Assembly: GCF_009914755.1 (NCBI RefSeq)
Contig: NC_060933.1
Length of the DNA stretch: 64,000 nucleotides
Reading direction: 5' to 3' (one strand)
Source of the DNA: the human T2T-CHM13v2.0 reference genome, Homo sapiens
In this document: piece by piece, positions 60-64,000 of the stretch
How positions within the stretch are numbered: the first letter of the stretch is position 1
Layout: each line of letters begins with the position of its first letter
Translations under genes and position numbers: made by a program
Notes under the pieces: model-generated
What the model saw: the letters and a program-made list of their open reading frames with translations, nothing else
What the model was told of the DNA's origin: nothing
The model's database searches: none

Positions 60-266
60 ATGGAATGGAATGGATTTAACCCGAATAGAATTGAATGGAA
101 TGGAATGGAACGGAACGGAACAGAATGGAATGGAATGGAATGGAATGGAATGGAATGGAATGGAATGGAACGGAAAGGAATGGAATGGAATGGAATGGAA
201 TGTAATGGAATGGAATGGAATCAACGCGAGTGCAGGGGAATGGAATGGAATGGAATGCAATGGAAT

Positions 267-281
267 GGAATCTTCCGGAAT
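267..281 (+). promoter_or_regulatory. Perfect three-unit heat shock element (nGAAn nTTCn nGAAn); first of about 28 copies on the left arm
   Basis: gGAAt cTTCc gGAAt. Other starts read by eye: 1749, 3491, 4983, 5697, 7164, 8906, 10313, 10537, 13156, 17295, 18093, 18881, 19724, 22824, 24902, 27338, 27786, 28799, 29642, 32663, 34289, 34972, 36810, 38267, 39150, 40567, 40791. The motif match is direct; HSF1 occupancy is inferred. Confidence 0.7.
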
Positions 282-320
282 GGACTGGAATGGAATGGAA
301 TGGAATGGAATGGAATGGAA

Positions 321-612
321 TAAACCCGAGTGCAATGGAATGGAGTGGAATGGAATGGAATGGAATGGAACAGCCCGAATGGAAAGGAATGTAATGGAGA
401 GTAAGGGAGTTGAATAGAATCAATCCGAATGTAATGGAATGGAATGCAACGGAATGGAATTGAATGGAATGGAATGGAATGCAATGGAATGGAATCAACC
501 CGAGTGCAATGGAATGGAGAGGAATGGAATGGAATGGAATGGAAACTACCCGAATGGAATGGAATGGAATGGAGTGTAAGGGAATTGAATAGAATCAATC
601 CGAATGTAATGG
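321..612 (+). repeat. Ancient dimeric cassette of about 175 bp (GAGAGTAAGGGAGTTG / GAGTGTAAGGGAATTG variants), representative copy
   Basis: GTAAGGGA at 401 and 576, each followed by TTGAATAGAATCAATCCGAATGTAAT; the A-then-B pair recurs through the window. Confidence 0.8.
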
Positions 613-3600
613 AATGGAATGGAATGCAATGGAATGGAATGCAATGGAATGGAATCAACCCGAGTGCAATCGAATGGAATCGAATGGAATGGAATGCAAT
701 GGAATGGATTCAACTTGAATGGAATGGAAAGAATGGAATCAACACGAGTGGAAGGGCATGGATTACAATGCAATGGAATGGAATCAACCCGAGTACAGGG
801 GAATGGAATGGAATGGAATGCAATGGAATGGAATCAACACGATTGCAATCGAATGGAATGGAATGGAATTAACCCGAATAGAATGGAATGGAATGGAATG
901 GAACGGAACGGAATGGAATGCAATGGAATCAACCCGAGTGCAGGGGAATGGAATGGAATGGAATGCAATGGAATGGAATCATCCGGAATGGAATGGAATG
1001 GAATGGAATGCAAAGCAATGGAATCAACTCGATTGCAATGGAATGGAATGGAATGGAAAGGAATACATTGGAATCAACCCGAGTGGAATGGAATGGAAAG
1101 GACTGGAACGGAGTGGAATGTAATGGAATGGAATGGAATGGAATCAACTCGATTGGAATGGAATGGAATGGAATGGAATGGAATGGAATGGAATTAACCC
1201 GAATAGAATGGAATGGAATGGAATGGAACGGAACGGAACGGAATGGAATGGAATGGAATGGAATGGAATGGAATGGAATGGAATCAACCCGACTGCAGGG
1301 GAATGGAATGGAATGGAATGCAATGGAATGGATTCAACTTGAATGGAATGGAAAGAATGGAATCAACACGAGTGGAATGGCATGGATTGGAATGGAATGG
1401 AATGGAATCAACCCGAGTACAGGGGAATGGAATGGAATGGAATGCAATGGAATGGAATCATCCGTAATGGAATGGAAAGGAATGGAATGGAATGGAATGG
1501 AATGGAATGGAATGGAATCAATTCGATTGCAGTCGAATGGAATGGAATGGAATTAACCCGAATAGAATGGAATGGAATGGAATGGAACGGAACGGAACGG
1601 AACGGAACGGAATGGAATGGAATGGAATGGAATGGAATGGAATGGAACGGAAAGGAATGGAATGGAATGGAATGGAATGGAATGGAATGGAATGGAATGG
1701 AATCAACGCGAGTGCAGGGGAATGGAATGGAATGGAATGCAATGGAATGGAATCTTCCGGAATGGAATGGAATGGAATGGAATGGAATGGAATGGAATGG
1801 AATAAACCCGAGTGCAATGGAATGGAGTGGAATGGAATGGAATGGAATGGAACAACCCGAATGGAATGGAATGTAATGGAGAGTAAGGGAGTTGAATAGA
1901 ATCAATCCGAATGTAATGGAATGGAATGGAAAGGAATCGAGTTGAATGGAATGGAATGGAATGCAATGGAATGGAATCAACCCGAGTGCAATGGAATGGA
2001 GAGGAATGGAATGGAATGGAATGGAAACTACCCGAATGGAATCGAATGTAATGGAGTGTAAGGGAATTGAATAGAATCGATCCGAATGTAATGGAATGGA
2101 ATGGAACGGAACGGAATGGAATGGAATGGAATGGAATGGAATGGAATGGAATGGAATGCAATGGAATGGAATCAACCCGAGTGCAATCGAATGGAATCGA
2201 ATGGAATGGAATGCAATGGAATGGATTCAACTTGAATGGAATGGAAAGAATGGAATCAACACGAGTGGAAGGGCATGGATTGGAATGCAATGGAATGGAA
2301 TCAACCTGAGTACAGGGGAATGGAATGGAATGGAATGCAATGGAATGGAATCATCCGTAATGGAATGGAAAGGAATGGAATGGAATGGAATGGAATGGAA
2401 TGGAATGGAATGGAATCGTTCCGAGTGGAATAGGAGGGAATGTATTCGAGTGGAATGGAAAGGAATGGAATGAACCAGAGTGGAATGGAAGGGAATGGAA
2501 TGGAATGGAAACTAATAGAATGGAATCAACCCGAGTGGAATGGAATGGAAAGGACTGGAATGGAATGGAACGGAATGGAATCAACTCGATTGTAATGGAA
2601 TGGAATGGAATGGAATGGAATGGAATGGAATTAACCCGAATACAATGGAATGGAATGGAATGGAACGGAATGGAGTGGAATGGAATGGAATCAACCCGAG
2701 TGCAGGGGAATGGAATGGAATGGAATGCAATGGAATGGAATCATCCGGAATGGAATGGAATGGAATGGAATGCAAAGCAATGGAATCAACTCGATTGCAA
2801 TGGAATGGAATGGAATGGAAAGGAATACATTGGAATCAACCCGAGTGGAATGGAATGGAAAGGACTGGAATGGAGTGGAATGGAATGGAATGGAATGGAA
2901 TGGAATCAACTCGATTGGAATGGAATGGAATGGAATGGAATGGAATGGAATTAACCCGAATAGAATGGAATGGAATGGAATGGAACGGAACGGAATGGAA
3001 TGGAATGGAATGGAATGGAATGGAATGGAATGGAATGGAATGGAATCAACCCGACTGCAGGGGAATGGAATGGAATGGAATGCAATGGAATGGATTCAAC
3101 TTGAATGGAATGGAAAGAATGGAATCAACACGAGTGGAATGGCATGGATTGGAATGGAATGGAATGGAATGAACCCGAGGACAGGGGAATGGAATGGAAT
3201 GGAATGCAATGGAATGGAATCATCCGGAATGGAATGGAATGGAATGGAATGGAATGGAATGGAATGGAATGGAATCAACTCGATTGCAATCGAATGGAAT
3301 GGAATGGAATTAACCCGAATAGAATGGAATGGAATGGAATGGAACGGAACGGAACAGAATGGAATGGAATGGAATGGAATGGAATGGAATGGAATGGAAT
3401 GGAAAGGAATGGAATGGAATGGAATGGAATGGAATGGAATGGAATCAACGCGAGTGCAGGGGAATGGAATGGAATGGAATGCAATGGAATGGAATCTTCC
3501 GGAATGGAATGGAATGGAATGGAATGGAATGGAATGGAATGGAATGGAATGGAATAAACCCGAGTGCAATGGAATGGAGTGGAATGGAATGGAATGGAAT

Positions 3601-6600
3601 GGAACAGCCCGAATGGAATGGAATGTAATGGAGAGTAAGGGAGTTGAATAGAATCAATCCGAATGTAATGGAATGGAATGGAACGGAATGGAATTGAATG
3701 GAATGGAATGGAATGCAATGGAATGGAATCAACCCGAGTGCAATGGAATGGAGAGGAATGGAATGGAATGGAATGGAAACTACCCGAATGGAATGGAATG
3801 TAATGGAGTGTAAGGGAATTGAATAGAATCAATCCGAATGTAATGGAATGGAATGGAATGGAATGGAATGCAATGGAATGGAATCAACCCGAGTGCAATC
3901 GAATGGAATCGAATGGAATGGAATGCAATGGAATGGATTCAACTTGAATGGAATGGAATGAATGGAATCAACACGAGTGGAAGGGCATGGATTAGAATGC
4001 AATGGAATGGAATCAACCCGAGTACAGGGGAATGGAATGGAAAGGAATGCAATGGAATGGAATCAACACGATTGCAATCGAATGGAATGGAATGGAATTA
4101 ACCCGAATAGAATGGAATGGAATGGAATGGAACGGAACGGAATGGAATGGAATGGAATCAACCCGAGTGCAGGGGAATGGAATGGAATGGAATGCAATGG
4201 AATGGAATCATCCGGAATGGAATGGAATGGAATGGAATGCAAAGCAATGGAATCAACTCGATTGCAATGGAATGGAATGGAATGGAAAGGAATACATTGG
4301 AATCAACCCGAGTGGAATGGAATGGAAAGGACTGGAACGGAGTGGAATGTAATGGAATGGAATGGAATGGAATCAACTCGATTGGAATGGAATGGAATGG
4401 AATGGAATGGAATGGAATGGAATGGAATTAACCCGAATAGAATGGAATGGAATGGAATGGAACGGAACGGAACGGAATGGAATGGAATGGAATGGAATGG
4501 AATGGAATGGAATGGAATCAACCCGACTGCAGGGGAATGGAATGGAATGGAATGCAATGGAATGGATTCAACTTGAATGGAATGGAAAGAATGGAATCAA
4601 CACGAGTGGAATGGCATGGATTGGAATGGAATGGAATGGAATCACCCCGAGTACAGGGGAATGGAATGGAATGGAATGCAATGGAATGGTATCATCCGTA
4701 ATGGAATGGAAAGGAATGGAATGGAATAGAATGGAATGGAATGGAATGGAATCAACTCGATTTCAGTCGAATGGAATGGAATGGAACTAACCCGAGTAGA
4801 ATGGAATGGAATGGAATGGAACGGAACGGAACGGAACGGAACGGAATGGAATGGAATGGAATGGAATGGAATGGAATGGAACGGAAAGGAATGGAATGGA
4901 ATGGAATGGAATGGAATGGAATGGAATGGAATGGAATCAACGCGAGTGCAGGGGAATGGAATGGAATGGAATGCAATGGAATGGAATCTTCCGGAATGGA
5001 ATGGAATGGAATGGAATGGAATGGAATGGAATGGAATAAACCCGAGTGCAATGGAATGGAGTGGAATGGAATGGAATGGAATGGAACAACCCGAATGGAA
5101 TGGAATGTAATGGAGAGTAAGGGAGTTGAATAGAATCAATCCGAATGTAATGGAATGGAATGGAAAGGAATCGAGTTGAATGGAATGGAATGGAATGCAA
5201 TGGAATGGAATCAACCCGAGTGCAATGGAATGGAGAGGAATGGAATGGAATGGAATGGAAACTACCCGAATGGAATGGAATGTAATGGAGTGTAAGGGAA
5301 TTGAATAGAATCGATCCGAATGTAATGGAATGGAATGGAACGGAACGGAATGGAATGGAATGGAATGGAATACATTGGAATCAACCCGAGTGGAATGGAA
5401 TGGAAAGGACTGGAATGGAGTGGAATGGAATGGAATGGAATGGAATGGAATGGAATCAACTCGATTGGAATGGAATGGAATGGAATGGAATGGAATGGAA
5501 TTAACCCGAATAGAATGGAATGTAATGGAATGGAACGGAACGGAACAGAATGGAATGGAATGGAATGGAATGGAATGGAATGGAATGGAATGGAATGGAA
5601 CGGAAAGGAATGGAATGGAATGGAATGGAATGGAATGGAATGGAATGGAATCAACGCGAGTGCAGGGGAATGGAATGGAATGGAATGCAATGGAATGGAA
5701 TCTTCCGGAATGGAATGGAATGGAATGGAATGGAATGGAATGGAATGGAATAAACCCGAGTGCAATGGAATGGAGTGGAATGGAATGGAATGGAATGGAA
5801 CAGCCCGAATGGAAAGGAACGTAATGGAGAGTAAGGGAGTTGAATAGAATCAATCCGAATGTAATGGAATGGAATGGAACGGAATGGAATTGAATGGAAT
5901 GGAATGGAATGCAATGGAATGGAATCAACCCGAGTGCAATGGAATGGAGAGGAATGGAATGGAATGGAATGGAAACTACCCGAATGGAATGGAATGTTAG
6001 GGAGTGTAAGGGAATTGAATAGAATCAATCCGAATGTAATGGAATGGAATGGAATGGAATGGAATGGAATGCAATGGAATGGAATCAACCCGAGTGCAAT
6101 CGAATGGAATCGAATGGAATGGAATGCAATGGAATGGATTCAACTTGAATGGAATGGAAAGAATGGAATCAACACGAGTGGAAGGGCATGGATTAGAATG
6201 CAATGGAATGGAATCAACCCGAGTACAGGGGAATGGAATGGAATGGAATGCAATGGAATGGAATCAACACGATTGCAATCGAATGGAATGGAATGGAATT
6301 AACCCGAATAGAATGGAATGGAATGGAATGGAACGGAACGGAATGGAATGGAATGGAATCAACCCGAGTGCAGGGGAATAGAATGGAATGGAATGCAATG
6401 GAATGGAATCATCCGGAATGGAATGGAATGGAATGGAATGCAAAGCAATGGAATCAACTCGATTGCAATGGAATGGAATGGAATGGAAAGGAATACATTG
6501 GAATCAACCCGAGTGGAATGGAATGGAAAGGACTGGAACGGAGTGGAATGTAATGGAATGGAATGGAATGGAATCAACTCGATTGGAATGGAATGGAATG

Positions 6601-9600
6601 GAATGGAATGGAATGGAATGGAATTAACCCGAATAGAATGGAATGGAATGGAATGGAACGGAACGGAACGGAACGGAATGGAATGGAATGGAATGGAATG
6701 GAATGGAATCAACCCGACTGCAGGGGAATGGAATGGAATGGAATGCAATGGAATGGATTCAACTTGAATGGAATGGAAAGAATGGAATCAACACGAGTGG
6801 AATGGCATGGATTGGAATGGAATGGAATGGAATCAACCCGAGTACAGGGGAATGGAATGGAATGGAATGCAATGGAATGGAATCATCCGTAATGGAATGG
6901 AAAGGAATGGAATGGAATGGAATGGAATGGAATGGAATGGAATCAACTCGATTGCAGTCGAATGGAATGGAATGGAATTAACCCGAATAGAATGGAATGG
7001 AATGGAACGGAACGGAACGGAACGGAACGGAATGGAATGGAATGGAATGGAATGGAATGGAACGGAAAGGAATGGAATGGAATGGAATGGAATGGAATGG
7101 AATGGAATGGAATGGAATCAACGCGAGTGCAGGGGAATGGAATGGAATGGAATGCAATGGAATGGAATCTTCCGGAATGGAATGGAATGGAATGGAATGG
7201 AATGGAATGGAATGGAATAAACCCGAGTGCAATGGAATGGAGTGGAATGGAATGGAATGGAATGGAACAACCCGAATGGAATGGAATGTAATGGAGAGTA
7301 AGGGAGTTGAATAGAATCAATCCGAATGTAATGGAATGGAATGGAAAGGAATCGAGTTGAATGGAATGGAATGGAATGCAATGGAATGGAATCAACCCGA
7401 GTGCAATGGAATGGAGAGGAATGGAATGGAATGGAATGGAAACTACCCGAATGGAATGGAATGTAATGGAGTGTAAGGGAATTGAATAGAATCGATCCGA
7501 ATGTAATGGAATGGAATGGAACGGAACGGAACGGAATGGAATGGAATGGAATGGAATGGAATGGAATGGAATGGAATGCAATGGAATGGAATCAACCCGA
7601 GTGCAATCGAATGGAATCGAATGGAATGGAATGCAATGGAATGGATTCAACTTGAATGGAATGGAAAGAATGGAATCAACACGAGTGGAAGGGCATGGAT
7701 TGGAATGCAATGGAATGGAATCAACCTGAGTACAGGGGAATGGAATGGAATGGAATGCAATGGAATGGAATCATCCGTAATGGAATGGAAAGGAATGGAA
7801 TGGAATGGAATGGAATGGAATGGAATGGAATGGAATCATTCCGAGTGGAATAGGAGGGAATGTATTCGAGTGGAATGGAAAGGAATGGAATCAACCAGAG
7901 TGGAATGGAAGGGAATGGAATGGAATGGAAACTAATAGAATGGAATCAACCCGAGTGGAATGGAATGGAAAGGACTGGAATGGAATGGAACGGAATGGAA
8001 TCAACTCGATTGTAATGGAATGGAATGGAATGGAATGGAATGGAATGGAATTAACCCGAATACAATGGAATGGAATGGAATGGAACGGAATGGAGTGGAA
8101 TGGAATGGAATCAACCCGAGTGCAGGGGAATGGAATGGAATGGAATGCAATGGAATGGAATCATCCGGAATGGAATGGAATGGAATGGAATGCAAAGCAA
8201 TGGAATCAACTCGATTGCAATGGAATGGAATGGAATGGAAAGGAATACATTGGAATCAACCCGAGTGGAATGGAATGGAAAGGACTGGAATGGAGTGGAA
8301 TGGAATGGAATGGAATGGAATGGAATCAACTCGATTGGAATGGAATGGAATGGAATGGAATGGAATGGAATTAACCCGAATAGAATGGAATGGAATGGAA
8401 TGGAACGGAACGGAACGGAATGGAATGGAATGGAATGGAATGGAATGGAATGGAATGGAATCAACCCGACTGCAGGGGAATGGAATGGAATGGAATGCAA
8501 TGGAATGGATTCAACTTGAATGGAATGGAAAGAATGGAATCAACACGAGTGGAATGGCATGGATTGGAATGGAATGGAATGGAATGAACCCGAGTACAGG
8601 GGAATGGAATGGAATGGAATGCAATGGAATGGAATCATCCGGAATGGAATGGAATGGAATGGAATGGAATGGAATGGAATGGAATGGAATCAACTCGATT
8701 GCAATCGAATGGAATGGAATGGAATTAACCCGAATAGAATGGAATGGAATGGAATGGAACGGAACGGAACAGAATGGAATGGAATGGAATGGAATGGAAT
8801 GGAATGGAACGGAAAGGAATGGAATGGAATGGAATGGAATGGAATGGAATGGAATGGAATCAACGCGAGTGCAGGGGAATGGAATGGAATGGAATGCAAT
8901 GGAATGGAATCTTCCGGAATGGAATGGAATGGAATGGAATGGAATGGAATGGAATGGAATGGAATAAACCCGAGTGCAATGGAATGGAGTGGAATGGAAT
9001 GGAATGGAATGGAACAGCCCGAATGGAATGGAATGTAATGGAGAGTAAGGGAGTTGAATAGAATCAATCCGAATGTAATGGAATGGAATGGAACGGAATG
9101 GAATTGAATGGAATGGAATGGAATGCAATGGAATGGAATCAACCCGAGTGCAATGGAATGGAGAGGAATGGAATGGAATGGAATGGAAACTACCCGAATG
9201 GAATGGAATGTAATGGAGTGTAAGGGAATTGAATAGAATCAATCCGAATGTAATGGAATGGAATGGAATGGAATGGAATGCAATGGAATGGAATCACCCC
9301 GAGTGCAATCGAATGGAATCGAATGGAATGGAATGCAATGGAATGGATTCAACTTGAATGGAATGGAAAGAATGGAATCAACACGAGTGGAATGGCATGG
9401 ATTGGAATGGAATGGAATGGAATCAACCCGAGTACAGGGGAATGGAATGGAATGGAATGCAATGGAATGGAATCATCCGTAATGGAATGGAAAGGAATGG
9501 AATGGAATGGAATGGAATGGAATGGAATGGAATGGAATCAACCCGAGTGCAGGGGAATGGAATGGAATGCAATGGAATGGAATGGAATGGAATGGAGTGG

Positions 9601-42202: not shown

Positions 42203-42230
42203 AATGGAATCAACCCGAGTTGATTCCATT
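42203..42230. other. Intra-array inversion breakpoint; 12-bp inverted arms around a 4-nt centre
   Basis: AATGGAATCAAC-CCGA-GTTGATTCCATT; arms 42203-42214 and 42219-42230 are exact reverse complements, and strand polarity flips here. Confidence 0.95.
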
Positions 42231-45200: not shown

Positions 45201-45836
45201 ATTCCCCTGCACTCGGGTTGAATCCACGCGATTCCATTCCATTCCATTCCATTCCATTCCATTCCATTGCAATCGAGTTGATTCCATTCCATTCCATTCC
45301 GTTCCGTTCCGGATGATTCCATTCCATTGCGTTCCATTACATTCCATTCCCGTGCAGTCGGGTTTATTCCATTCCATTCCATTCCATTCCATTCCGTTCC
45401 ATTCCATTCCATTCCATTCTATTCGGGTTAATTCCATTCCATTCCATTCCATTCCATTCAAATTCCATTCCACTCCATTCCATTCCATTCCATTCCATTC
45501 CATTCCATTCCATTCCGGATGATTCCATTCCATTGCATTCCCTTCCATTACATTCCCCAGCACTCGCGTTGATTCCATTCCATTCCATTCCATTCCATTC
45601 AATTCCATTCCATTACAATTCCTTCCATTCCATTCTATTCCGTACCATTCCATTCCATTCCATACCATTCCATTCCATTCCATTCCATTCCGTTCAATTC
45701 CGTTCCATTCCATTCCATTCCATTCTATTCGGGTTAATTCCATTCCATTCCATTCCATTCCATTCCATTCTATTCCATTCCATTGCAATCGAGTTGAATC
45801 CATTGCATTTCATTCCTTTCCATTCCATTCCATTCC

Positions 45837-45851
45837 ATTCCGGAAGATTCT
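45837..45851 (-). promoter_or_regulatory. Perfect three-unit heat shock element; first of about 16 copies on the inverted arm
   Basis: aTTCc gGAAg aTTCt. Others near 47274, 48324, 50944, 51204, 52803, 53357, 53642, 55460, 56727, 57595, 58285, 59729, 60607, 62444, 63102. Confidence 0.7.
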
Positions 45852-48800: not shown

Positions 48801-49599
48801 TCCATTCCATTCTATTCCGGTTAATTCCATTCCATTCCATTCCATTCCATTGCAATCGAGTTGATTCCATGCCATTCCTTTCCATTCCATTCCATTGCCT
48901 TGCATTCCACTCGGGTTGATTCCATTCCCTTCTTTCCACTCTATTACATTCCCTTCCATTCCACTCGGAATGATTGATTCCATTCCATTCCATTCCATTT
49001 CATTCCATTGCAATCCATTCAAATCCATTCCATTCCATTCCATTCCACTCGAGTTGACTTCATTCCATTCCTTTCCATTCCATTCCATTCATTTCCACTC
49101 GAGTTGATTCCATTCCATTCCATTCCATTGCATTCCATTCCATGCCATTCCACTCGGGTTGATTCCATTCCTTTGCATTCCATTCCATTCCATTCCATTC
49201 CATTCCATTCCGTTGCATTCCATTCCATTACATTCGGATTGATTCTATTCAACTCCATTACTGTCCATTACATTCCATTCCATACGGGTTGTTCCATTCC
49301 ATTCCATTCCATTCCACTCCATTCCATTGCACTCGGGTTGATTCCATTCCATTCCATTCCTTTCCATTCCATTCCGGATGATTCCATTCCATTGCATTCC
49401 GTTCCATTACATTCCCCTGCACTCGCGTTGATTCCATTCCATTCCATTCCATTCCATTCAATTCCATTCCATTACAATTCGTTCCATTCCATTCTATTCC
49501 GTACCATTCCATTCCATTCCATACCATTCCATTCCATTCCATTCCATTCCATTCCGTTCCATTCCGTTCCATTCCATTCCATTCTATTCGGGTTAATTC

Positions 49600-52500: not shown

Positions 52501-55500
52501 GCATTCCGTTACATTACATTCCCTTGCACTCGCGTTGATTCCATTGCATTCCATTCCATTCCATTCAATTCCATTCCATTACAATTCGTTGCAATCCATT
52601 CTATTCCGTAACATTCCATTCCATTCCATACAATTCCATTCCATTCCATTCCATTCCATTCCATTCCGTTCCATTCCGTTCCATTCCATTCCATTCCATT
52701 CTATTCGGGTTAATTCCATTCCATTCTATTCCATTCCATACTATTCCATTCCATTGCAATCGAGTTGAATCCATTGCATTTCATTCCATTCCATTCCATT
52801 CCATTCCGGAAGATTCCATTCCATTGCATTCCATTCCATTCCATTCCCCTGCACACGCGTTGATTCCATTCCATTCCATTCCATTCCATTCCGTTCCGTT
52901 CCGTTCCGTTCCATTCTATTCCATTCCGTTCCGTTCCATTCCATTCCATTCCATTCTATTTGGGTTAATTCCATTCCATTCCATTCGATTGCAATCGAGT
53001 TGATTCCATTCCATTCCATTCCATTCCGTTCCATTCCATTCCATTACATTCGGATTGATTCTATTCAATTCCCTTACACTCCATTACATTCCATTCCATT
53101 CGGGTAGTTTCCATTCGATTCCATTCCATTCCTCTCCATTCCATTGCACTCGGGTTGATTCCATTCCATTGCATTCCATTCCATTCCATTCAATTCCATT
53201 CCATTCCATTCCATTCCATTACATTCGGAATGATTCTATTCAACTCCCTTACTCTCCATTACATTCCATTCCATTCGGGTTGTTCCATTCCATTCCATTC
53301 CATTCCACTCCATTCCATTGCACTCGGGTTGATTCCATTCCATTCCATTCCATTCCATTCCGGAAGATTCCATTCCATTGCATTCCATTACATTCCATTC
53401 CCCTGCACTCGCGTTGATTCCATTCCATTCCATTCCATTCCATTCCGTTCCATTCCATTCCTTTCCGTTCCATTCCATTCCATTCCATTCCATTCCATTC
53501 CGTTCCGTTCCGTTCCGTTCCGTTCCATTCCATTCCATTCCATTCTATTCGGGTTAATTCCATTCCATTCCCTTCGATTGCAATCGAGTTGATTCCATTC
53601 CATTCCATTCCATTCCATTCCATTCCATTCCATTCCATTGCATTCCGGAAGATTCCATTCCATTGCATTCCATTCCATTCCATTCCCCTGCACTCGCGTT
53701 GATTCCATTCCATTCCATTCCATTCCATTCCATTCCATTCCGTTCCGTTCCGTTCCATTCCGTTCCGTTCCATTCCATTCCCTTCCGTTCCGTTCCATTC
53801 CATTCCATTCCATTCTATTCGGGTTAATTCCATTCCATTCCATTCCATTGCAATCGAGTTGATTCCATTCCATTCCATTCCATTCCATTCCATTCCATTC
53901 CATTCCTTTGCATTCCATTACGGATGATTCCATTCCATTGCATTCCATTCCATTCCATTCCCCTGTACTCGGGTTGATTCCATTCCATTCCATTCCAATC
54001 CATGCCATTCCACTCGTGTTGATTCCATTCTTTCCATTCCATTCAAGTTGAATCCATTCCATTGCATTCCATTCCATTCCATTCCCCTTCAGTCGGGTTG
54101 ATTCCATTCCATTCCATTCCATTCCATTCCATTCCATTCCATTCCATTCCAATCGAGTTGATTCCATTCCATTCCATTCCATTCCATTCCATTCCATTCC
54201 ACTCCTTTCCAGTCCTTTCCATTCCATTCCACTCGGGTTGATTCCAATGTATTCCTTTCCATTCCATTCCATTCCATTGCAATCGAGTTGATTCCATTGC
54301 TTTGCATTCCATTCCATTCCATTCCATTCCGGATGATTCCATTCCATTGCATTCCATTCCATTCCATTCCCCTGCACTCGGGTTGATTCCATTCCATTCC
54401 ACTCCATTCCATTCCATTCCATTCCATTCCGTTGTATTCGGGTTAATTCCATTCCATTCCATTCCATTCCATTCCATTCCAATCCATTACAATCGAGTTG
54501 ATTCCATTCCATTCCATTCCATTCCATTCCATTCCATTCCATTCCATTCCAGTCCTTTCCATTCCATTCCACTCGGGTTGATTCCATTCTATTAGTTTCC
54601 ATTCCATTCCATTCCCTTCCATTCCACTCTGGTTGATTCCATTCCTTTCCATTCCTCTCGAATACATTCCCTCCTATTCCACTCGGAACGATTCTATTCC
54701 ATTCCATTCCATTCCATTTCGTTCCATTCCATTCTATTCCGTACCATTCCATTCCATTCCATTCCTTTCCATTCCATTCCATTCCACTCGTGTTGATTCC
54801 ATTCCTTTCCATTCCATTCGGTTTGAAAGCATTCCATTCCATTCAATTCCACTCCATTCCATTCCATTCCATTCCATTTCATTCCATTCCATTCCATTGA
54901 ACTCGTGTTGATTCCATTCCATTGCATTCCATTCCATTCCATTCCATTCCATTCCATTCCTTTCCATTCCATTCCGTTGCATTCCATTCCATTACACTCG
55001 GATTGATTCCATTCAACTCCCTTACTCTCCATTACATTCCATTCCATTCGGGTTGTTCCATTCCTTTCCATTCCATTCCACTCCATTCCATTGCACTCGG
55101 GTTGATTCCATTCCATTCCATTCCATTCCATTCCGGATGATTCCATTCCATTGCATTCCGTTCCATTACATTCCCTTGCACTCACGTTGATTCCATTCCA
55201 TTCCATTCCATTCCATTCCATTCCATTCCATTCCATTACAATTCGTTCCATTCCATTCTATTCCGTACCATTCCATTCCATTCCATACCATTCCATTCCA
55301 TTCCATTCCATTCCATTCCATTCCGTTCCATTCCGTTCCAATCCATTCCATTCCATTCTATTCGGGTTAATTCCATTCCATTCCATTCCATTCCATTCTA
55401 TTCCATTCCATTGCAATCGAGTTGAATCCATTGCATTTCATTCCATTCCATTCCATTCCATTCCGGAAGATTCCATTCCATTGCATTCCATTCCATTCCA

Positions 55501-55700
55501 TTCCCCTGCACTCGCGTTGATTCCATTCCATTCCATTCCATTCCATTCCGTTCCGTTCCGTTCCTTTCCATTCCATTCCATTCCATTCCATTCCATTCCG
55601 TTCCGTTCCATTCCATTCCATTCCATTCTATTTGGGTTAATTCCATTTCATTCCATTCGATTGCAATCGAGTTGATTCCATTCCATTCCATTCCATTCCA
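49600..55700 (-). repeat. Irregular tandem triplication (offsets about 2.05, 2.41 and 2.65 kb)
   Basis: TTTGAAAGCATT at about 50127, 52180, 54822; GTTGTATTCGGG at about 49721, 51784, 54431; TTCGGAATGATT at about 50811, 53224. Confidence 0.8.
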
Positions 55701-57779
55701 TTCCATTCCATTCCATTCCATTCCATTCCATTCCTTTCCATTCCATTACGGATGATTCCATTCCATTGCATTCCATTCCATTCCATTCCCCTGTACTCGG
55801 GTTGATTCCATTCCATTCCATTCCAATCCATGCCATTCCACTCGTGTTGATTCCATGCTTTCCATTCCATTCAAGTTGAATCCATTCCATTGCATTGCAT
55901 TCCATTTGATTCCATTCGATTGCACTCGGGTTGATTCCATTCCATTCCATTCCATTCCATTCCATCCTATTCCATTCCGTTCCGTTCCGTTCCATTCCAT
56001 TCCATTCCATTCCATTCCATTCCGTTCCGTTCCGTTCCATTCCATTCCATTCCATTCTATTCGGGTTAATTCCATTCCATTCCATTCGATTGCAATCGTG
56101 TTGATTCCATTCCATTCCATTCCATTCCATTCCATTCCATTCCTTTCCATTCCATTACGGATGATTCCATTCCATTGCATTCCATTCCATTCCATTCCCC
56201 TGTACTCGGGTTGATTCTATTCCATTGCATTCCAATCCATGCCCTTCCACTCGTGTTGATTCCATTCTTTCCATTCCATTCAAGTTGAATCCATTCCATT
56301 GCATTCCATTCCATTCGATTCCATTCGATTGCACTCGGGTTGATTCCATTCCATTGCATTCCAGTCCATTCCATTCCATTCCGTTCCATTCCATTCCATT
56401 ACATTCGGATTGATTCTATTCAATTCCCTTACTCTCCATTACATTCCATTCCATTCGGGTAGTTTCCATTCCATTCCATTCCATTCCTCTCCATTCCATT
56501 GCACTCGGGTTGATTCCATTCCATTGCATTCCATTCCATTCCATTCAATTCCATTCCGTTCCATTCCATTCCATTACATTCGGATTGATTCTATTCAACT
56601 CCCTTACTCTCTATTACATTCCATTCCATTCGGGCTGTTCCATTCCATTCCATTCCATTCCACTCCATTCCATTGCATTCGGGTTTATTCCATTCCATTC
56701 CATTCCATTCGATTCCATTCCATTCCATTCCGGAAGATTCCATTCCATTGCATTCCATTCCATTCCATTCCCCTGCACTCCCGTTGATTCCATTCCATTC
56801 CATTCCATTCCATTCCATTCCATTCCATTCCATTCCATTCCTTTCCGTTCCATTCCATTCCATTCCATTCCATTCCGTTCCGTTCCGTTCCATTCCATTC
56901 CATTCCTTTCTATTCGGGTTAATTCCATTCCATTTCATTCGATTGCAATCGAGTTGATTCCATTCCATTCCATTCCATTCCATTCCATTCCATTCCATTC
57001 CTTTCCATTCCATTACGGATGATTCCATTCCATTGCATTCCATTCCATTCCATTCCCCTGTACTCGGGTTGTTTCCATTCCATTGCATTCCAATCCATGC
57101 CCTTCCACTCGTGTTGATTCCATTCTTTCCATTCCATTCAAGTTGAATCCATTCCATTGCATTCCATTCACTTCGATTCCATTCGATTGCACTCGGGTTG
57201 ATTCCATTCCATTGCATTCCATTCCATTCCATTCCATTCCATTCCATTCCATTCCGTTCCATTCCATTCCATTACATTCGGATTGATTCTATTCAATTCC
57301 CTTGCACTCCATTACATTCCTTTCCATTCGGGCAGTTTCCATTCCATTCCATTCCATTCCTCTCCATTCCATTGCACTCGGGTTGATTCCATTCCATTGC
57401 ATTCCATTCCATTCCATTCAATCCCATTCCGTTCCATACCATTCCATTCCATTCGGATTGATTCTATTCAACTCCCTTACTCTCCATTACATTCCATTCC
57501 ATTCGGGTTGTTCCATACCATTCCATTCCATTCCACTCCATTCCATTGCACTCGGATTTATTCCATTCCATTCCATTCCATTCCATTCCATTCCATTCCG
57601 GAAGATTCCATTCCATTGCATTCCATTCCATTCCATTCCATTCCAATCGAGTTGATTCCATTCCATTGCATTCCATTCCATTCCACTCCATTCCAGTCCT
57701 TTCCATTCCATTACACTCGAGTTGATTCCATTCCATTCCACTCCATTCCGTTCCATTCCATTCCATTCCATTGTATTCG

Positions 57780-59620
57780 GGTTAATTCCATTCCATTCCA
57801 TTCCATTCCATTCCATTCCATTCCATTACAATCGAGTTGATTCCATTCCATTCCATTCCATTCCATTCCAGTCCTTTCCATTCCATTCCACTCGGGTTGA
57901 TTCCATTCTATTAGTTTCCATTCCATTCCATTCCCTTCCATTCCACTCTGGTTGATTCCATTCCTTTCCATTCCACTCGAATACATTCCCTCATATTCCA
58001 CTCGGAACGATTCCATTCCATTCCATTCCATTCCATTCCATTCCATTCCATTCCAGTTCGTTCCATTCCGTTCTATTCCGTACCATTCCATTCCATTCCA
58101 TTCCTTTCCATTCCATTCCTTTCCACTCGTGTTGATTCCATTGCTTTCCATTCCATTCGGTTTGAAGGCATTCCATTCCATTCAATTCCATTCCATTCCA
58201 TTCCATTCCCTTCCATTCTATTCCATTGCATTGCAATCGAGTTGAATCCATTGCCTTTCATTCCATTCCATTCCATTCCATTCCATTCCGGAAGATTCCA
58301 TTCCATTGCATTTCATTCCATTCCATTCCCCTGCACTCGCGTTGATTCCATTCCATTCCATTCCATTCCATTCCATTCCGTTCCATTCCTTTCCATTCCA
58401 TTCTATTCGGGTTAATTCCGTTCCATTCCATTCGATTGCCATCGAGTTGATTCCATTCCATTCCATTCCATTCCATTCCATTCCATTCCTTTCCGTTCCA
58501 TTACGGATGACTCCATTCCATTGCATTCCATTCCATTCCATTCCCCTGTACTCGGGTAGATTCCATTCCATTCCATTCCACTCCATTCGGTTCCGCTGCA
58601 TTCTATTCTATTGCATTCCATTCTATTCGGGTTAATTCCATTCCGTTCTATTCCATTCCATTCCATTCCATTCCATTGCAATGGAGTTGATTCCATTCCA
58701 TTCCATTCCATTCCAGATGATTCCATTCCATTGCATTCCATTCCATTCCATTCCCCTGCACTCGTGTTGATTCCATTCCCTTCCATTCCATTCCATTCCG
58801 TTCCATTCCATTCCATTCCATTCTATTCCGGTTAATTCCATTCCATTCCATTCCATTCCATTCCATTGCAATCGAGTTGATTCCATTCCATTCCTTTCAT
58901 TCCATTCCATTGCCTTGCATTCCACTCGGGTTGATTCCATTCCCTTCTTTCCACTCCATTACATTCCCTTCCATGATTGATTCCATTCCATTCCATTCCA
59001 TTTCATTCCATTGCAATCCATTCCAATCCATTCCATTCCATTCCATTCCACTCGAGGTGACTTCATTCCATTGCTTTCCATTCCATTCCATTCCTTTCCA
59101 CTCGAGTTGATTCCATTCCATTCCAATCCATTGCTTTCCATTCCATGCCATTCCACTCGGGTTGATTCCATTCCTTTGCATTCCATTCCATTCCATTCCA
59201 TTCCATTCCATTCCATTCCATTCCATTCCATTCCGTTGCATTCCATTCCATTACATTCGAATTGATTCTATTCAACTCCCTTACTCTCCATTACATTCCA
59301 TTCCATTCGGGTTGTTCCATTCCATTCCATTCCATTCCACTCCATTCCATTGCACTCGGGTTGATTCCATTCCATTCCATTCCATTCCATTCCATTCCAT
59401 TCCATTCCATTCCGGATGATTCCATTCCATTGCATTCCGTTCCATTACATTCCCCTGCACTCGCGTTGATTCCATTCCATTCCATTCCATTCCATTCAAT
59501 TCCATTCCATTACAATTCGTTCCATTCCATTCTATTCCATATCATTCCATTTCATTCCATTCCATTCCATTCCATTCCATTCCATTCCATTCCATTCCGT
59601 TCCGTTCCATTCCATTCCAT
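57780..59620 (-). repeat. Paralog of about 47800-49560 (offset about 9.96 kb)
   Basis: Private variants TCCAGTTCGT (48091/58052), GCCTTTCAT (48292/58253) and GATTGCCATCGAG (about 48503/58434). Confidence 0.8.
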
Positions 59621-62600
59621 TCCATTCTATTCGTGTTAATCCCATTCCATTCCATTCCTTTCCATTCTATTCCATTCCATTGCAATCGAGTGGAATCCAT
59701 TGCATTTCATTCCATTCCATTCCATTCCATTCCGGAAGATTCCATTCCATTGCATTCCAATCCATGCCATTCCCCTGCACTCGCGTTGATTCCATTCCAT
59801 TCCATTCCATTCCATTCCATTCCATTCCATTCCATTCCTTTCTGTTCCGTTCCATTCCATTCCATTCCATTCCATTCCATTCCATTCCATTCCATTCCAT
59901 TCCTTTTCATTCCATTCCATTCCATTCTATTCGGGTTAATTCCATTCCATTCCATTCGATTGCAATCGTGTTGATTCCATTCCATTCCATTCAATTCCAT
60001 TCCATTCCTTTCCATTCCATTACGGATGATTCCATTCCATTGCATTCCATTCCATTCCATTCCCCTGTACTCGGGTTGATTCCATTCCATTGCATTCCAA
60101 ACCATGCCCTTCCACTCGTGTTGATTCCATTCTTTCCATTCCATTCAAGTTGAATCCATTCCATTGTATTCCATTCCATTCGATTCCATGCGATTGCACT
60201 CGGGTTGATTCCATTCCATTGCATTCCATTCCATTCCATTCCATTACATTCCATTCCATTCCGTTCCATTCCATTCCATTACATTCGGATTCATTCTATT
60301 CAATTCCCTTACACTCCATTATATTCCATTCCATTCGGGTAGTTTCCATTCCATTCCATTCCATTCCATTCCTCTCCATTCCATTGCACTCGGGTTGATT
60401 CCATTCCATTGCATTCCATTCCATTCCATTCAATTCCATTCCGTTCCATTCCATTCCATTACATTCGGATTAACTCTATTCAACTCCCTTACTCTCCATT
60501 ACATTCCATTCCATTCGGGTTGTTCCATTCCATTCCATTCCATTCCACTCCATTCCATTGCACTCGGATTTATTCCATTCCATTCCATTCCATTCCATTC
60601 CATTCCATTCCGGAAGATTCCATTCCATTGCATTCCATTCCATTCCATTCCCCTGCACTCGCGTTGATTCCATTCCATTCCATTCCATTCCATTCCATTC
60701 CATTCCATTCCTTTCCGTTCCATTCCATTCGATTCCATTCCATTCCATTCCATTCCGTTCCGTTCCGTTCCGTTCCATTCCATTCCATTCCATTCTATTC
60801 GGGTTAATTCGATTCCATTCCATTCGATTGCAATCGAGTTGATTCCATTCCATTCCATTCCATTGCATTCCATTCCATTCCATTCCATTCCTTTCCATTC
60901 CATTACGGATGATTCCATTCCATTGCATTCCATTCCATTCCATTCCCCTGTACTCGGTTGATTCCATTCCATTCCATTCCAATCCATGCCATTCCACTCT
61001 TGTTGATTCCATTCTTTCCATTCCATTCAAGTTGAATCCATTCCATTGCATTCCATTCCATTCCATTCCCCTGCAGTCGGGTTGATTCCATTCCATTCCA
61101 TTCCATTCCATTCCATTCCATTCCGTTCCGTTCCGTTCCGTTCCGTTCCATTCCATTCCATTCTATTCGGGTTAATTCCATTCCATTCCATTCCATTCCA
61201 TTCCATTCCATTCCATTCCATTCCAATCGAGTTGATTCCATTCCATTCCATTCCATTCCATTCCACTCCATTCCAGTCCTTTCCATTCCATTCCACTCGG
61301 GTTGATTCCAATGTATTCCTTTCCATTCCATTCCATTCCATTGCAATCGAGTTGATTCCATTGCTTTGTATTCCATTCCATTCCATTCCATTCCGGATGA
61401 TTCTATTCCATTGCATTCCATTCCATTCCATTCCCCTGCACTCGGGTTGATTCCATTCCATTCCACTCCATTCCGTTCCATTCCATTCCATTCCATTGTA
61501 TTCGGGTTAATTCCATTCCATTCCATTCCATTCCTTTCCAGTCCTTTCCATTCCATTCCACTCGGGTTGATTCCATTCTATTAGTTTCCATTCCATTCCA
61601 TTCCCTTCCATTCCACTCTGGTTGATTAAATTCCTTTCCATTCCACTCGAATACATTCCCTCCTATTCCACTCGGAACGATTCCATTCCATTCCATTCCA
61701 TTCCATTCCATTCCATTCCATTCCATTCCGTTCCATTTCGTTCCATTCCATTCTATTCCGTATCATTCCATTCCATTCCATTCCATTCCATTCCATTCCA
61801 TTCCATTCCATTCCATTCCACTCGTGTTGATTCCATTCCTTTCCATTCCATTCCGTTTGAAGGCATTCCATTCCATTCCATTACATTCCATTGCATTCCA
61901 TTCCATTCCATTCCATTGTACTCGGGCTGATTCCATTCCATTGCATTCCGTTCCATTCCATTCCATTCCATTCCGTTGCATTCCATTCCATTACATTCGG
62001 ATTGATTCTATTCAACTCCCTTACTCTCCATTACATTCCATTCCATTCGGGTTGTTCCATTCCATTCCATTCCATTCCACTCTATTCCATTGCACTCGGG
62101 TTGATTCCATTCCATTCCATTCCATTCCATTCCGGATGATTCCATTCCATTGCATTCCGTTCCATTACATTCCCCTGCACTCGCGTTGATTCCATTCCAT
62201 TCCATTCAATTCCATTCCATTACAATTCGTTCCATTCCATTCTATTCCGTACCATTCCATTCCATTCCATACCATTCCTTTCCATTCCATTCCATTCCAT
62301 TCCGTTCCATTCCGTTCCATTGCATTCCATTCCATTCTATTCGGGTTAATTCCATTCCATTCAATTCCATTCCATTCTATTCCATTCCATTGCAATCGAG
62401 TTGAAACCATTGCATTTCATTCCATTCCATTCCATTCCATTCCATTCCGGAAGATTCCATTACATTGCATTCCATTCCATTCCATTCCCCTGCACTCGCA
62501 TTGATTCCATTCCATTCCATTCCATTCCATTCCATTCCGTTCCGTTCCATTCCATTCCATTCCATTCCATTCCATTCCTTTCCGTTCCATTCCATTCCAT

Positions 62601-64000
62601 TCCATTCTATTCGGGTTAATTCCATTCCATTCCATTCGATTGCAATCGAGTTGATTCCATTCCATTCCATTCCATTCCATTCCATTCCATTCCATTCCTT
62701 TCCATTCCATTACGGATGATTCCATTCCATTGCATTCCATTCCATTCCATTCCCCTGTACTCGGGTTGATTCCATTCCATTCCATTCCAATCCATGCCAT
62801 TCCACTCGTGTTGATTCCCTTCTTTCCATTCCATTCAAGTTGAATCCATTACATTGCATTCCATTCCATTCCATTCCATTCCATTCCGGATGTTTCCATT
62901 CCATTGCATTCCATTCCATTCCATTCCATTCCGTTCCATTCCATTCCATTACATTCGGATTGATTCTATTCAACTCCCTTAGTCTCCACTACATTCCATT
63001 CCATTCGGGTTGTTCCATTCCATTCCATTCCATTCCACCCCATTGCATTGCCCTCGGGTTTATTCCATACCATTCCATTCCATTCCATTCAATTCCATTC
63101 CATTCCGGAAGATTCCATTCCATTGCATTCCATTCCATTCCATTCCCCTGCACTCGCGTTGATTCCATTCCATTCCATTCCATTCCATTCCATTGCGTTC
63201 CGTTCCATTCCATTCCAATCCATTCCATTCCATTCCATTCCATTCCGATCCGTTCCATTCCATTCCATTCCATTCTATTCGGGTTAATTCCATTCCATTC
63301 CATTCGATTGCAATCGAGTTGATTCCATTCCATTCCATTCCATTCCATTCCATTCCGTTCCATTCCTTTCCATTCCATTACGGATGATTCCAATCCATTG
63401 CATTCCATTCCATTCCATTCCATTCCATTCCGTTCCATTCCTTTCCATTCCATTACGGATGATTCCATTCCATTGCATTCCATTCCATTCCATTCCCCTG
63501 TACTCGGGTTGATTCCATTCCATTCCATTCCAATCCATGCCATTCCACTCGTGTTGATTCCATTCTTTCCATTCCATTCAAGTTGAATCCATTCCATTGC
63601 ATTGCATTCCATTCCATTCCCCTGCAGTCGGGTTGATTCCATTCCATTCCATTCCATTCCATTCCATTCCATTCCAATCAAGTTGATTCCATTCCATTCC
63701 ATTCCATTGCATTCCATTCCATTCCACTCCATTCCAGTCCTTTCCATTCCATTCCACTCGGGTTGATTCCAATGTATTCCTTTCCATTCCATTCCATTCC
63801 ATTGCAATCGAGTTGATTCCATTGCTTTGCATTCCATTCCATTCGATTCCATTCCGGATGATTCCATTCCATTGCATTCCATTCCATTCCATTCCCCTGC
63901 ACTCGGGTTGATTCCATTCCATTCCACTCCATTCCATTCCATTCCATTCCATTCCATTGTATTCGGGTTAATTCCATTCCATTCCATTCCATTCCATTCC

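What the first reader, a model, noticed from the sequence alone, without database searches (positions are those of the whole stretch)
267..63116. About 44 perfect heat-shock elements built into one satellite module
Seen: plain GGAAT repeats give only head-to-tail nGAAn. The module GGAAT-CTTCC-GGAAT inserts an in-register inverted unit, making a textbook nGAAnnTTCnnGAAn roughly every 1.5 kb (28 on +, 16 on - by eye). Several variants change only n positions (GGAAACTTCCGGAAT at 10537 and 40791, GGAATCTTCTGGAAT at 22824, ...GGAAC at 18881); two copies lose a GAA (about 25715 and 31915). Flanking pentamers keep GAA at every second unit, the step-type HSE spacing. Known: HSF1 trimers bind three alternating nGAAn units, and HSF1 concentrates on 9q12 SatIII in nuclear stress bodies. 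Inference: this module could be the discrete seed that makes this subfamily the main HSF1 target, with cooperative spreading over the GGAAT lattice. I cannot confirm whether this exact module has been reported.
Basis: partly seen in the sequence, partly recalled or inferred. Interest (0 to 1): 0.8.

Follow-up and report, generated by a model that had tools for sequence, protein, structure and literature searches.

The report
Canonical heat-shock elements in chr9 satellite
One 15-base module repeated through the giant chromosome 9 satellite is a textbook binding site for the heat-shock factor HSF1, which probably helps explain why stress bodies form there, an idea already outlined in print.

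Summary
The window holds 44 perfect three-unit heat-shock elements (28 on +, 16 on -), against 2.8 expected from shuffles. All are copies of one module, GGAAT-CTTCC-GGAAT, about every 1.4 kb.

The module sits in the 10-bp "terminator" slot of one sub-block of an irregular higher-order repeat. It differs by one base (T/A) from a more abundant sibling, CATCC.

Genome-wide, the exact 15-mer occurs 12,700 times and appears confined to the chr9 HSat3 array. It was present in 17 of 18 HSat3 samples across 26 Mb.

A broader pattern for perfect elements embedded in the GGAAT lattice gives 24,116 hits. My estimates for chr9 plus the Y array, which carries three unrelated in-register modules, account for all of them. 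Samples of chr15 HSat3 (21 kb) and chr1/chr16 HSat2 (16 kb) had none. This fits 9q12 and Yq12 being the primary HSF1 targets.

The idea is largely in print: canonical elements at Yq12, "putative HSEs" at 9q12, and HSF1 ChIP-seq tracking motif density in T2T HSat3. Published motif-matrix enrichment does not single out chr9. I found no extra sequence constraint on the element. I did not find the exact module in print. Interest is moderate.

The parts
267..281 (+). perfect HSE module GGAATCTTCCGGAAT
1749..1763 (+). perfect HSE module, exact 15-mer
3491..3505 (+). perfect HSE module, exact 15-mer
4983..4997 (+). perfect HSE module, exact 15-mer
5697..5711 (+). perfect HSE module, exact 15-mer
7164..7178 (+). 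perfect HSE module, exact 15-mer
8906..8920 (+). perfect HSE module, exact 15-mer
10313..10327 (+). perfect HSE module, exact 15-mer
10537..10551 (+). perfect HSE, variant GGAAACTTCCGGAAT (n position changed)
13156..13170 (+). perfect HSE module, exact 15-mer
17295..17309 (+). perfect HSE module, exact 15-mer
18093..18107 (+). perfect HSE module, exact 15-mer
18881..18895 (+). perfect HSE, variant ...GGAAC
19724..19738 (+). perfect HSE module, exact 15-mer
22824..22838 (+). perfect HSE, variant GGAATCTTCTGGAAT (loses the CpG)
24902..24916 (+). perfect HSE module, exact 15-mer
25715..25729 (+). decayed copy GCAAACTTCCGGAAT (first GAA lost; TTCnnGAA dimer kept)
27338..27352 (+). perfect HSE module, exact 15-mer
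27786..27800 (+). perfect HSE module, exact 15-mer
28799..28813 (+). perfect HSE module, exact 15-mer
29642..29656 (+). perfect HSE module, exact 15-mer
31915..31929 (+). decayed copy GGCATCTTCCGGAAT (first GAA lost)
32663..32677 (+). perfect HSE module, exact 15-mer
34289..34303 (+). perfect HSE module, exact 15-mer
34972..34986 (+). perfect HSE module, exact 15-mer
36810..36824 (+). perfect HSE module, exact 15-mer
38267..38281 (+). perfect HSE module, exact 15-mer
39150..39164 (+). perfect HSE, variant ...GGAAC
40567..40581 (+). perfect HSE module, exact 15-mer
40791..40805 (+). perfect HSE, variant GGAAACTTCCGGAAT (30,254 bases from the copy at 10537)
42206..42227 (.). head-to-head inversion junction of the array: GGAATCAAC / CCGA / GTTGATTCC palindrome inside a terminator. 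The G-rich strand is + to the left and - to the right.
45837..45851 (-). perfect HSE, variant AGAATCTTCCGGAAT
47274..47288 (-). perfect HSE module, exact 15-mer
48324..48338 (-). perfect HSE module, exact 15-mer
50944..50958 (-). perfect HSE module, exact 15-mer
51204..51218 (-). perfect HSE module, exact 15-mer
52803..52817 (-). perfect HSE module, exact 15-mer
53357..53371 (-). perfect HSE module, exact 15-mer
53642..53656 (-). perfect HSE module, exact 15-mer
55460..55474 (-). perfect HSE module, exact 15-mer
56727..56741 (-). perfect HSE module, exact 15-mer
57595..57609 (-). perfect HSE module, exact 15-mer
58285..58299 (-). perfect HSE module, exact 15-mer
59729..59743 (-). perfect HSE module, exact 15-mer
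60607..60621 (-). perfect HSE module, exact 15-mer
62444..62458 (-). perfect HSE module, exact 15-mer
63102..63116 (-). perfect HSE module, exact 15-mer
1..64000 (.). HSat3 array context. It is a GGAAT lattice with 10-bp terminator slots and an irregular higher-order repeat (commonest k-mer distances 1467, 1482, 1742-1762 bp). The one-base sibling GGAATCATCCG occurs 87 times (56 on +, 31 on -). Of these, 49 are the full 15-mer GGAATCATCCGGAAT (32 on +, 17 on -).

Best explanation
GGAAT-CTTCC-GGAAT is a canonical continuous three-unit heat-shock element (nGAAnnTTCnnGAAn). It arose once, in the 10-bp 'terminator' slot of one sub-block of the chr9 HSat3 higher-order repeat. It is one base (T versus A) away from the commoner sibling CATCCGGAAT.

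Array expansion then copied it to about 12,700 exact copies. That corresponds to roughly 16,000 perfect HSEs, one per about 1.4-1.7 kb, over the ~27.6-Mb 9q12 array.

Inferred, not shown here: on heat shock these are the high-affinity docking sites for HSF1 trimers. The siblings (8 of 9 core bases) and the head-to-tail GGAAT lattice offer only weak sites. The very large number of strong sites in one place is what makes 9q12 a primary nucleation site for nuclear stress bodies and HSF1-driven satellite III transcription. Yq12 would do the same through its own, unrelated perfect HSEs.

The copy number reflects satellite amplification. No per-site selection is visible.
For: Motif and register:
- There are 44 perfect HSEs in the window, and all inverted dimers in the window lie in module copies.
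- The module occupies the terminator slot after GGAATGGAATC.
- It is tied to the sub-block with upstream CAACGCGAGTGCA: 33 of 40 copies there carry CTTCC. Two other sub-blocks carry CATCCGGAAT (24 of 29) and CATCCGTAAT (25 of 32).

Distribution on chr9:
- 17 of 18 HSat3 10-kb samples between 50.5 and 76.5 Mb hold 4-9 perfect HSEs, 107 in all 180 kb.
- The exact 15-mer occurs 12,700 times genome-wide (reversed-pattern control 3), with no hit on chr1-8 (listing order shown).
- The sample density of 0.456 per kb times 27.6 Mb gives about 12,600, which matches the genome-wide total.

Genome-wide contrast:
- GGAATGGAANNTTCNNGAA gives 24,116 hits, of which 23 lie on chr1-8.
- The estimates are 15,300-15,900 for chr9 plus about 9,580 for Y, which covers the total.
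- Y HSat3 samples hold 3 perfect in-register HSEs per 4 kb.
- I found 0 in 21 kb of chr15 HSat3 and 0 in 16 kb of chr1/chr16 HSat2.

Literature:
- 9q12 and Yq12 are the primary HSF1 targets, and there are four perfect HSEs in a 3,564-bp Y unit (passages).
- In gel-shift assays a consensus HSE competes with the chr9 satellite probe, and chr16 satellite II gives no shift (section read).
Against: - No binding data were analysed here.
- Published matrix-based enrichment of the HSF1 motif is about 10x for chr9 HSat3B5 blocks. It is ~16x for Y HSat3A6, 18.6x for chr15 HSat3A5 and 13-47x for HSat3A1 arrays. At matrix level chr9 is therefore not special.
- The 158-bp chr9 probe of Jolly 2002 bound HSF1 although its NGAAN arrangement was described as non-canonical. 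Weaker sites therefore bind too.
- HSEs with one imperfect unit are known to work. The roughly 20,600 siblings may therefore contribute.
- Only 105 of 165 copies of the sub-block carry a perfect HSE. The core T/A site is the most variable position in it.
- Core and n positions vary exactly as in ordinary flanking pentamers.
- The central CpG may be methylated in heterochromatin. This was not examined.
- The control arrays were sampled thinly, and no HSat3A1 or A2 array was sampled.
Confidence: 0.6

Rival explanations
1. HSF1 recruitment to 9q12 is set mainly by array size, chromatin state and the sum of many weak sites: the CATCC siblings, other near-HSEs and the GGAAT lattice. On this reading the perfect module is one contributor and not the discriminating seed.
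For: - A chr9 satellite probe described as non-canonical still bound HSF1 directly, needing about four times more protein than an HSE.
- HSF1 motif enrichment in the published table is equal or higher in other HSat3 subfamilies.
- Secondary stress bodies form on other chromosomes under stronger stress or HSF1 overexpression.
- Siblings outnumber modules, 20,563 against 12,700.
- Imperfect units are tolerated in active HSEs.
Against: - Near-HSE (8 of 9) density does not track target rank. chr1 HSat2 has 1.9 per kb, as much as chr9 at 1.3-1.5.
- Perfect HSEs do track target rank.
- chr16 satellite II gave no shift.
- HSF1 is reported to prefer canonical over discontinuous HSEs, and step-type elements activate weakly.
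Confidence: 0.25
2. The module is a neutral passenger variant amplified with its block. In vivo it is not preferentially bound, for example because the central CpG is methylated or the site is wrapped in heterochromatin.
For: - There is no extra conservation. Core positions show 1.4 changes per position and n positions 3.2, against 1.7 and 3.25 in ordinary flanking pentamers.
- The T/A state travels as a linked haplotype, G-T-T in 98 copies against T-C-A in 34.
- One origin plus amplification explains all the counts.
Against: - ChIP-seq signal follows HSF1 motif density inside HSat3 arrays.
- Unrelated in-register perfect HSEs occur in the only other primary target array, on Y.
- HSF1 binds the region through its DNA-binding domain.
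Confidence: 0.1
3. The same base creates an ETS-type site. The C-rich strand reads CCGGAAG, the class I ETS core (consensus recalled, not from a call). The relevant factor could therefore be an ELK/GABPA-type protein and not HSF1, or both.
For: - CCGGAAG occurs 45 times in the window, all in module copies.
- In the published table the ELK1 motif is enriched about 2-4x in chr9 HSat3B5 blocks and is 0 in nearly all other arrays.
Against: - The enrichment is modest, and GABPA shows about 1.1x or 0.
- The authors remark that ETS motifs are not heavily enriched in HSat3.
- No ETS factor is known to me to mark 9q12.
- This rival does not exclude HSF1 binding.
Confidence: 0.05

Closest known systems
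Canonical (perfect, continuous) heat-shock element of HSP gene promoters
   Same: It has three contiguous nGAAn units in alternating orientation in a 5-bp register, with the G of every unit intact.
   Different: It lies inside a satellite lattice and is copied about 12,700 times in one locus. Only three units are perfect. Neighbouring units are head-to-tail, so extension is of the gap or step type. No defined core promoter is known nearby.
Canonical HSEs of the Yq12 satellite III unit (Penin et al. 2021, PMC7889540; passages read)
   Same: Both are perfect HSEs interspersed in a GGAAT-type satellite that is a primary HSF1 target. The density is similar: 0.75 per kb in my samples, and 4 per 3,564 bp as published.
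   Different: The sequences are unrelated: GGAATGTTCTGGAAG, GGAAGGTTCTCGAAA and GGAAC[T/A]TTCTTGAAT. There are three to four different sites per 3.56-kb unit, not one module per about 1.4 kb.
HSF1 motif-dense sub-regions of T2T HSat3 arrays with matching HSF1 ChIP-seq (Franklin et al., bioRxiv 10.1101/2024.10.22.616524; passages, Methods section 13 and supplementary table rows read)
   Same: Same genome, same arrays and same claim that discrete HSF1 motifs inside HSat3 are what HSF1 occupies.
   Different: That work uses motif matrices on 50-bp pieces. In the parts I read it does not name the module, its sibling, its place in the repeat or its chromosome specificity. Its table ranks chr9 below several other subfamilies.
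Putative HSEs at 9q12, 'our unpublished observation' (Vourc'h et al. 2022, PMC9032817; passages), and 'HSE-like sequences scattered in HSat3' (Ninomiya and Hirose 2023, PMC10505914; passages)
   Same: Same locus and same idea.
   Different: The passages I read give no sequence, count or distribution. The review states that the number of HSF1 sites is unknown.
TEAD-motif platform in HSat3 (Franklin et al.)
   Same: A satellite acts as a megabase-scale array of transcription factor sites.
   Different: The TEAD motif is the lattice itself and is spread evenly. The HSE is a rare variant unit confined to particular arrays.

Membership tests
Canonical continuous heat-shock element | At least three contiguous 5-bp units nGAAn in alternating orientation (nGAAnnTTCnnGAAn) | tested here: met
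   44 exact matches in the window. In a further 180 kb of the chr9 array (18 HSat3 samples) there are 107.
Canonical continuous heat-shock element | The inverted unit is in register with its neighbours (2-bp spacers) | tested here: met
   Contexts read GGAAT GGAAT CTTCC GGAAT GGAAT on a 5-bp grid in the copies printed, 23 of 44 with the identical 45-base context.
Canonical continuous heat-shock element | Bound by the HSF1 trimer | not testable with these tools
   Indirect evidence only: ChIP-seq follows motif density in HSat3, and an HSE competes with the chr9 satellite probe in gel shift.
Canonical continuous heat-shock element | Confers heat-inducible transcription | not testable with these tools
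   Chr9 HSat3 transcripts rise on heat shock, but this is not tied to the module.
Canonical continuous heat-shock element | Core bases conserved above their surroundings (expected of a selected site) | tested here: not met
   Core 1.4 and n 3.2 changes per position, against 1.7 and 3.25 in flanking pentamers. The first T of TTC differs from T in 43 of 148 in-register copies. This is not a defining feature of an HSE, only of a site under selection.
Gap/step-type (discontinuous) HSE, for the flanks | nGAAn units repeated in the same orientation at 10-bp steps | tested here: met
   True of any GGAAT run, so it is uninformative. Step-type elements are reported to give low activation.
Human satellite 3, chr9 main array (labelled HSat3B5 in the published table) | GGAAT lattice with CAACCCGAGT-type terminators, located in the chr9 pericentromeric array | tested here: met
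   7,198 GGAAT/ATTCC pentamers in 64 kb and terminator 10-mers after GGAATGGAATC. The window is chr9:75.64 Mb. The same structure is found in samples from 50.5 to 76.5 Mb. The subfamily label is inferred from the column names of the published table, not from an annotation of this window.
ETS class I binding site | Core CCGGAAGT (consensus recalled, not from a call) | tested here: inconclusive
   The C-rich strand reads CCGGAAGA, which is 7 of 8. ELK1 matrix enrichment is 2-4x in chr9 blocks only.

The most novel reading that the evidence does not exclude
The number of perfect, lattice-embedded HSEs decides which human satellite arrays nucleate primary stress bodies. GGAAT content, matrix-level motif similarity and array size alone do not. 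Two unrelated arrays acquired such elements independently: chr9 by one T/A change in a terminator-derived slot, and Y by three different inverted pentamers. Each amplified them to roughly 15,000 copies, which hints at selection for a large HSF1-responsive scaffold or sink. The CTTCC/CATCC pair would then be a natural one-base on/off switch present about 12,700 and 20,600 times in the same array.
Probability: 0.3. Interest if true: 0.6.

Novelty: already known. Interest (0 to 1): 0.35.

Why it matters
In 2002 the field noted that the chr9 satellite's NGAAN units are not arranged like a canonical HSE, and it considered DNA secondary structure as an alternative. A 2022 review still called the number of HSF1 sites unknown.

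The complete sequence shows a plain answer. A textbook HSE occurs about every 1.4-1.7 kb, roughly 16,000 per chr9 array. A one-base sibling in the same array serves as a built-in negative control.

This makes 'why 9q12 and Yq12?' directly testable with existing ChIP reads. It also gives a count of strong sites for models of HSF1 titration and stress-body size. The concept itself is not new.

Tried and rejected
1. Shuffle significance. It is formally overwhelming but uninformative, because the 44 sites are copies of one block.

2. Conservation test. I anchored sub-block copies by an upstream 17-mer instead of by the motif, which gave 165 copies in 244 kb. The HSE core is no more conserved than ordinary pentamers, and CATCC in that sub-block is a linked block variant.

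3. A fuzzy 38-mer search also matched plain GGAAT runs. Only its rows with terminator-type upstream flanks were used.

4. A blastn census of the 130-bp block gave 313 near-full hits across paralogs. It was too unspecific and was not used.

5. Wider sampling of other arrays failed. Smaller samples followed.
   - One chr15 sample (14 Mb), two chr9 samples (47.5 and 49.0 Mb), two Y samples (AT-rich) and the chr1:127.75 Mb sample were not HSat2/3. They are excluded from the density figures.
   - No HSat3A1, A2 or B3 array and no acrocentric array other than chr15 was sampled.

6. I could not reproduce the published matrix scan, because no motif matrix is on hand. The 18.6x value for chr15 HSat3A5 against my 0 perfect HSEs in 21 kb therefore stays unreconciled. 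Probably the published score threshold admits imperfect sites such as TTCGAGCACATTC.

8. Literature for the exact module. A literal search for GAATCTTCCGGAA found one CRISPR preprint, which I saw only in the listing and did not open. Searches found no paper naming the module. Subscription-only papers are outside the library.

Full report
**What is there**

The window is human satellite 3 on chr9. GGAAT occurs 4,709 times and ATTCC 2,489 times. The G-rich strand is + up to about 42,215 and - beyond it.

GAANNTTCNNGAA matches 44 times, 28 on + and 16 on -. Dinucleotide shuffles gave 2.76 +/- 1.72, with a largest value of 9.

Thirty-eight matches are the exact 15-mer GGAATCTTCCGGAAT. The other six differ only at n positions.

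Every inverted pentamer pair in the window belongs to a module copy: TTCNNGAA occurs 46 times and GAANNTTC 44 times. Spacing has median 1412 bp and range 224-4139.

The 28/16 strand split simply follows the inversion of the array.

**Anatomy**

After GGAATGGAATC the array normally carries a 10-bp terminator such as CAACCCGAGT or CAACTCGATT. CTTCCGGAAT is one occupant of that slot, next to CATCCGGAAT and CATCCGTAAT.

The three are tied to three related sub-blocks, which can be told apart by the terminator about 45 bp upstream:
- CAACGCGAGTGCA goes with CTTCC in 33 of 40 copies.
- CAACCCGAGTGCA goes with CATCCGGAAT in 24 of 29.
- CAACCCGAGTACA goes with CATCCGTAAT in 25 of 32.

The perfect HSE is thus a diagnostic single-base variant of one sub-block of an irregular higher-order repeat. 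The commonest 40-mer distances in that repeat are 1467, 1482 and 1742-1762 bp.

The 44 sites are one event copied many times.

**Is the element under its own constraint?**

I collected sub-block copies by their upstream 17-mer instead of by the motif. The material was the window plus 18 chr9 samples, 244 kb in all.

Of 165 copies, 105 (64%) have a perfect HSE. Among 148 in-register copies, the first T of TTC differs from T in 43. That makes it the most variable position of the block, together with two upstream positions.

These three positions form two haplotypes: G-T-T in 98 copies and T-C-A in 34. CATCC in this sub-block is therefore a linked block variant and not random decay.

Leaving that site aside, core positions carry 1.4 changes per position and n positions 3.2. 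The four ordinary pentamers downstream show 1.7 and 3.25.

It also partly follows from finding copies by the motif.

**Distribution**

The assembly could be searched by pattern.

*The exact 15-mer.* It occurs 6,460 + 6,240 = 12,700 times, against 3 for the reversed-pattern control. The first place is chr9:49,755,937. Listings run in numeric chromosome order, so chr1-8 have none.

*Samples along chr9.* I took twenty 10-kb samples from 47.5 to 76.5 Mb, and 18 are HSat3. Seventeen of these hold 4-9 perfect HSEs. One, at 65.5 Mb, holds none. The total is 107 in 180 kb.

The 15-mer density in these samples is 82 per 180 kb. Multiplied by the published array length of 27.6 Mb, this gives about 12,600, which is essentially the whole genome-wide count. 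The module is therefore array-wide and practically chr9-specific.

The sibling behaves likewise. It has 20,563 copies, one of them on chr1-8.

*Other arrays.* Three of five 4-kb Y samples are HSat3. Each has three perfect HSEs built from different in-register inverted pentamers: GTTCT twice and [T/A]TTCT once. One of these modules occurs 4,836 times, 4,790 of them on Y at a ~3.55-kb period.

- chr15 HSat3: 0 perfect HSEs in six samples, 21 kb.
- chr1 and chr16 HSat2: 0 in four samples, 16 kb.

Near-HSEs with 8 of 9 core bases do not separate the arrays. The densities per kb are chr9 1.3-1.5, Y 2.5, chr1 HSat2 1.9, chr15 0.6 and chr16 0.1.

*A broader pattern.* GGAATGGAANNTTCNNGAA, a perfect HSE with lattice upstream, gives 24,116 hits genome-wide. 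Only 23 are on chr1-8, six of them in a small chr5 cluster.

Extrapolating from my samples gives 15,300-15,900 for chr9 and about 9,580 for Y. Together these cover the total, so little is left for all other chromosomes.

This pattern misses HSEs in more diverged lattices, such as the second Y module.

**How it most likely works**

*Shown.* The module is a perfect, in-register trimer site. It is present about once per 1.4-1.7 kb throughout the chr9 array. Such sites are nearly confined to the two arrays reported as primary HSF1 targets.

*Inferred.* HSF1 trimers dock on these sites at heat shock. The siblings and the lattice add weak binding. Roughly 16,000 strong sites per chr9 homologue concentrate HSF1 and its cofactors, and this starts G-strand transcription.

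On either side of the junction at about 42.2 kb, G-rich transcription would run towards the junction.

Support from print:
- HSF1 ChIP-seq follows motif density inside HSat3.
- HSF1 needs its DNA-binding and trimerisation domains.
- An HSE competes with the chr9 probe, and chr16 satellite II is not bound.

**Against the 'seed' claim**

The supplementary table of Franklin et al. gives the following matrix-based HSF1 enrichments:
- chr9 HSat3B5 blocks: about 10x
- Y HSat3A6: about 16x
- chr15 HSat3A5: 18.6x
- HSat3A1 arrays: 13-47x

I could not reconcile the chr15 value with my zero count. The method optimises its score threshold and probably admits imperfect sites.

The classic chr9 probe bound HSF1 despite a non-canonical arrangement. 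One-mismatch HSEs can also work.

Array size and chromatin state remain alternative or additional causes.

**What is known**

- Canonical HSEs in Y satellite III, and the suggestion that HSE number may set the chr9/Y hierarchy, are published.
- 'Putative HSEs' at 9q12 are mentioned as unpublished.
- 'HSE-like sequences scattered in HSat3' appears in a review.
- The T2T-based motif and ChIP correspondence is in a preprint.

I found no paper that names the module, its sibling or its chromosome specificity. The library lacks most subscription journals, and I read only passages of most papers.

**Verdict**

The finding is real and correctly read as a canonical HSE. It is plausibly the main HSF1 site of 9q12. 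Conceptually it is already known, and its claimed role as the deciding seed is unproven.

Noticed in passing
window 42206-42227: Head-to-head inversion junction of the satellite array. It lies inside a terminator and forms a 9-bp-arm palindrome, GGAATCAAC CCGA GTTGATTCC. G-rich-strand transcription on the two sides would converge here.
   Followed up: partly
window about 8900-10800 versus about 39150-41050, and more widely: A large internal duplication. 40-mers recur most often at a distance of 30,254 bases (501 cases). HSE copies at 10313/10537 recur at 40567/40791, including the rare GGAAA variant.
   Followed up: partly
all module copies, e.g. window 267-281: The same T that makes the HSE also makes CCGGAAG on the C-rich strand, an ETS-type core (45 in the window). 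In the published motif table ELK1 is enriched about 2-4x in chr9 HSat3B5 blocks and is 0 in nearly all other HSat3 arrays. The centre TTCCGGAA is an 8-bp palindrome holding a CpG.
   Followed up: partly
L021 (chr9:65,500,001-65,510,000): This is the only chr9 HSat3 sample of 18 with no module, no sibling and mixed strand (982 GGAAT, 139 ATTCC). It looks like a structurally different sub-block inside the array. That would fit the published remark that HSF1 motifs occupy sub-regions.
   Followed up: no
chr5:49,723,412-49,914,495 (places listed, not fetched): A sparse cluster of six related perfect HSEs: GGAATGGAATCTTCCCGAA five times and ...CTTCCAGAA once. The CTTCCCGAA form also occurs at chr9:49,776,442. 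It may be an intermediate between the CAACCCGA-type terminator and CTTCCGGAAT.
   Followed up: no
L029, L030, L032 (chrY 30.0, 38.0, 54.0 Mb): The Y satellite unit carries three different in-register inverted pentamers that give perfect HSEs. All are unrelated to the chr9 module. One of them repeats every ~3.55 kb, 4,790 times on Y.
   Followed up: yes
window, 22 copies, e.g. about 544-556: A second terminator variant, GAAACTACCCGAA, is an 8-of-9 near-HSE. It occurs 16 times on + and 6 times on - in the window.
   Followed up: no
sub-block copies across the window and L011-L028: The CAACGCGAGT sub-block exists in two linked forms. One has GGAAT...GGAAT...CTTCC (98 copies) and the other GTAAT...GGAAC...CATCC (34 copies). 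Both forms occur together in the window and in 14 of the 17 chr9 samples that carry this sub-block.
   Followed up: yes
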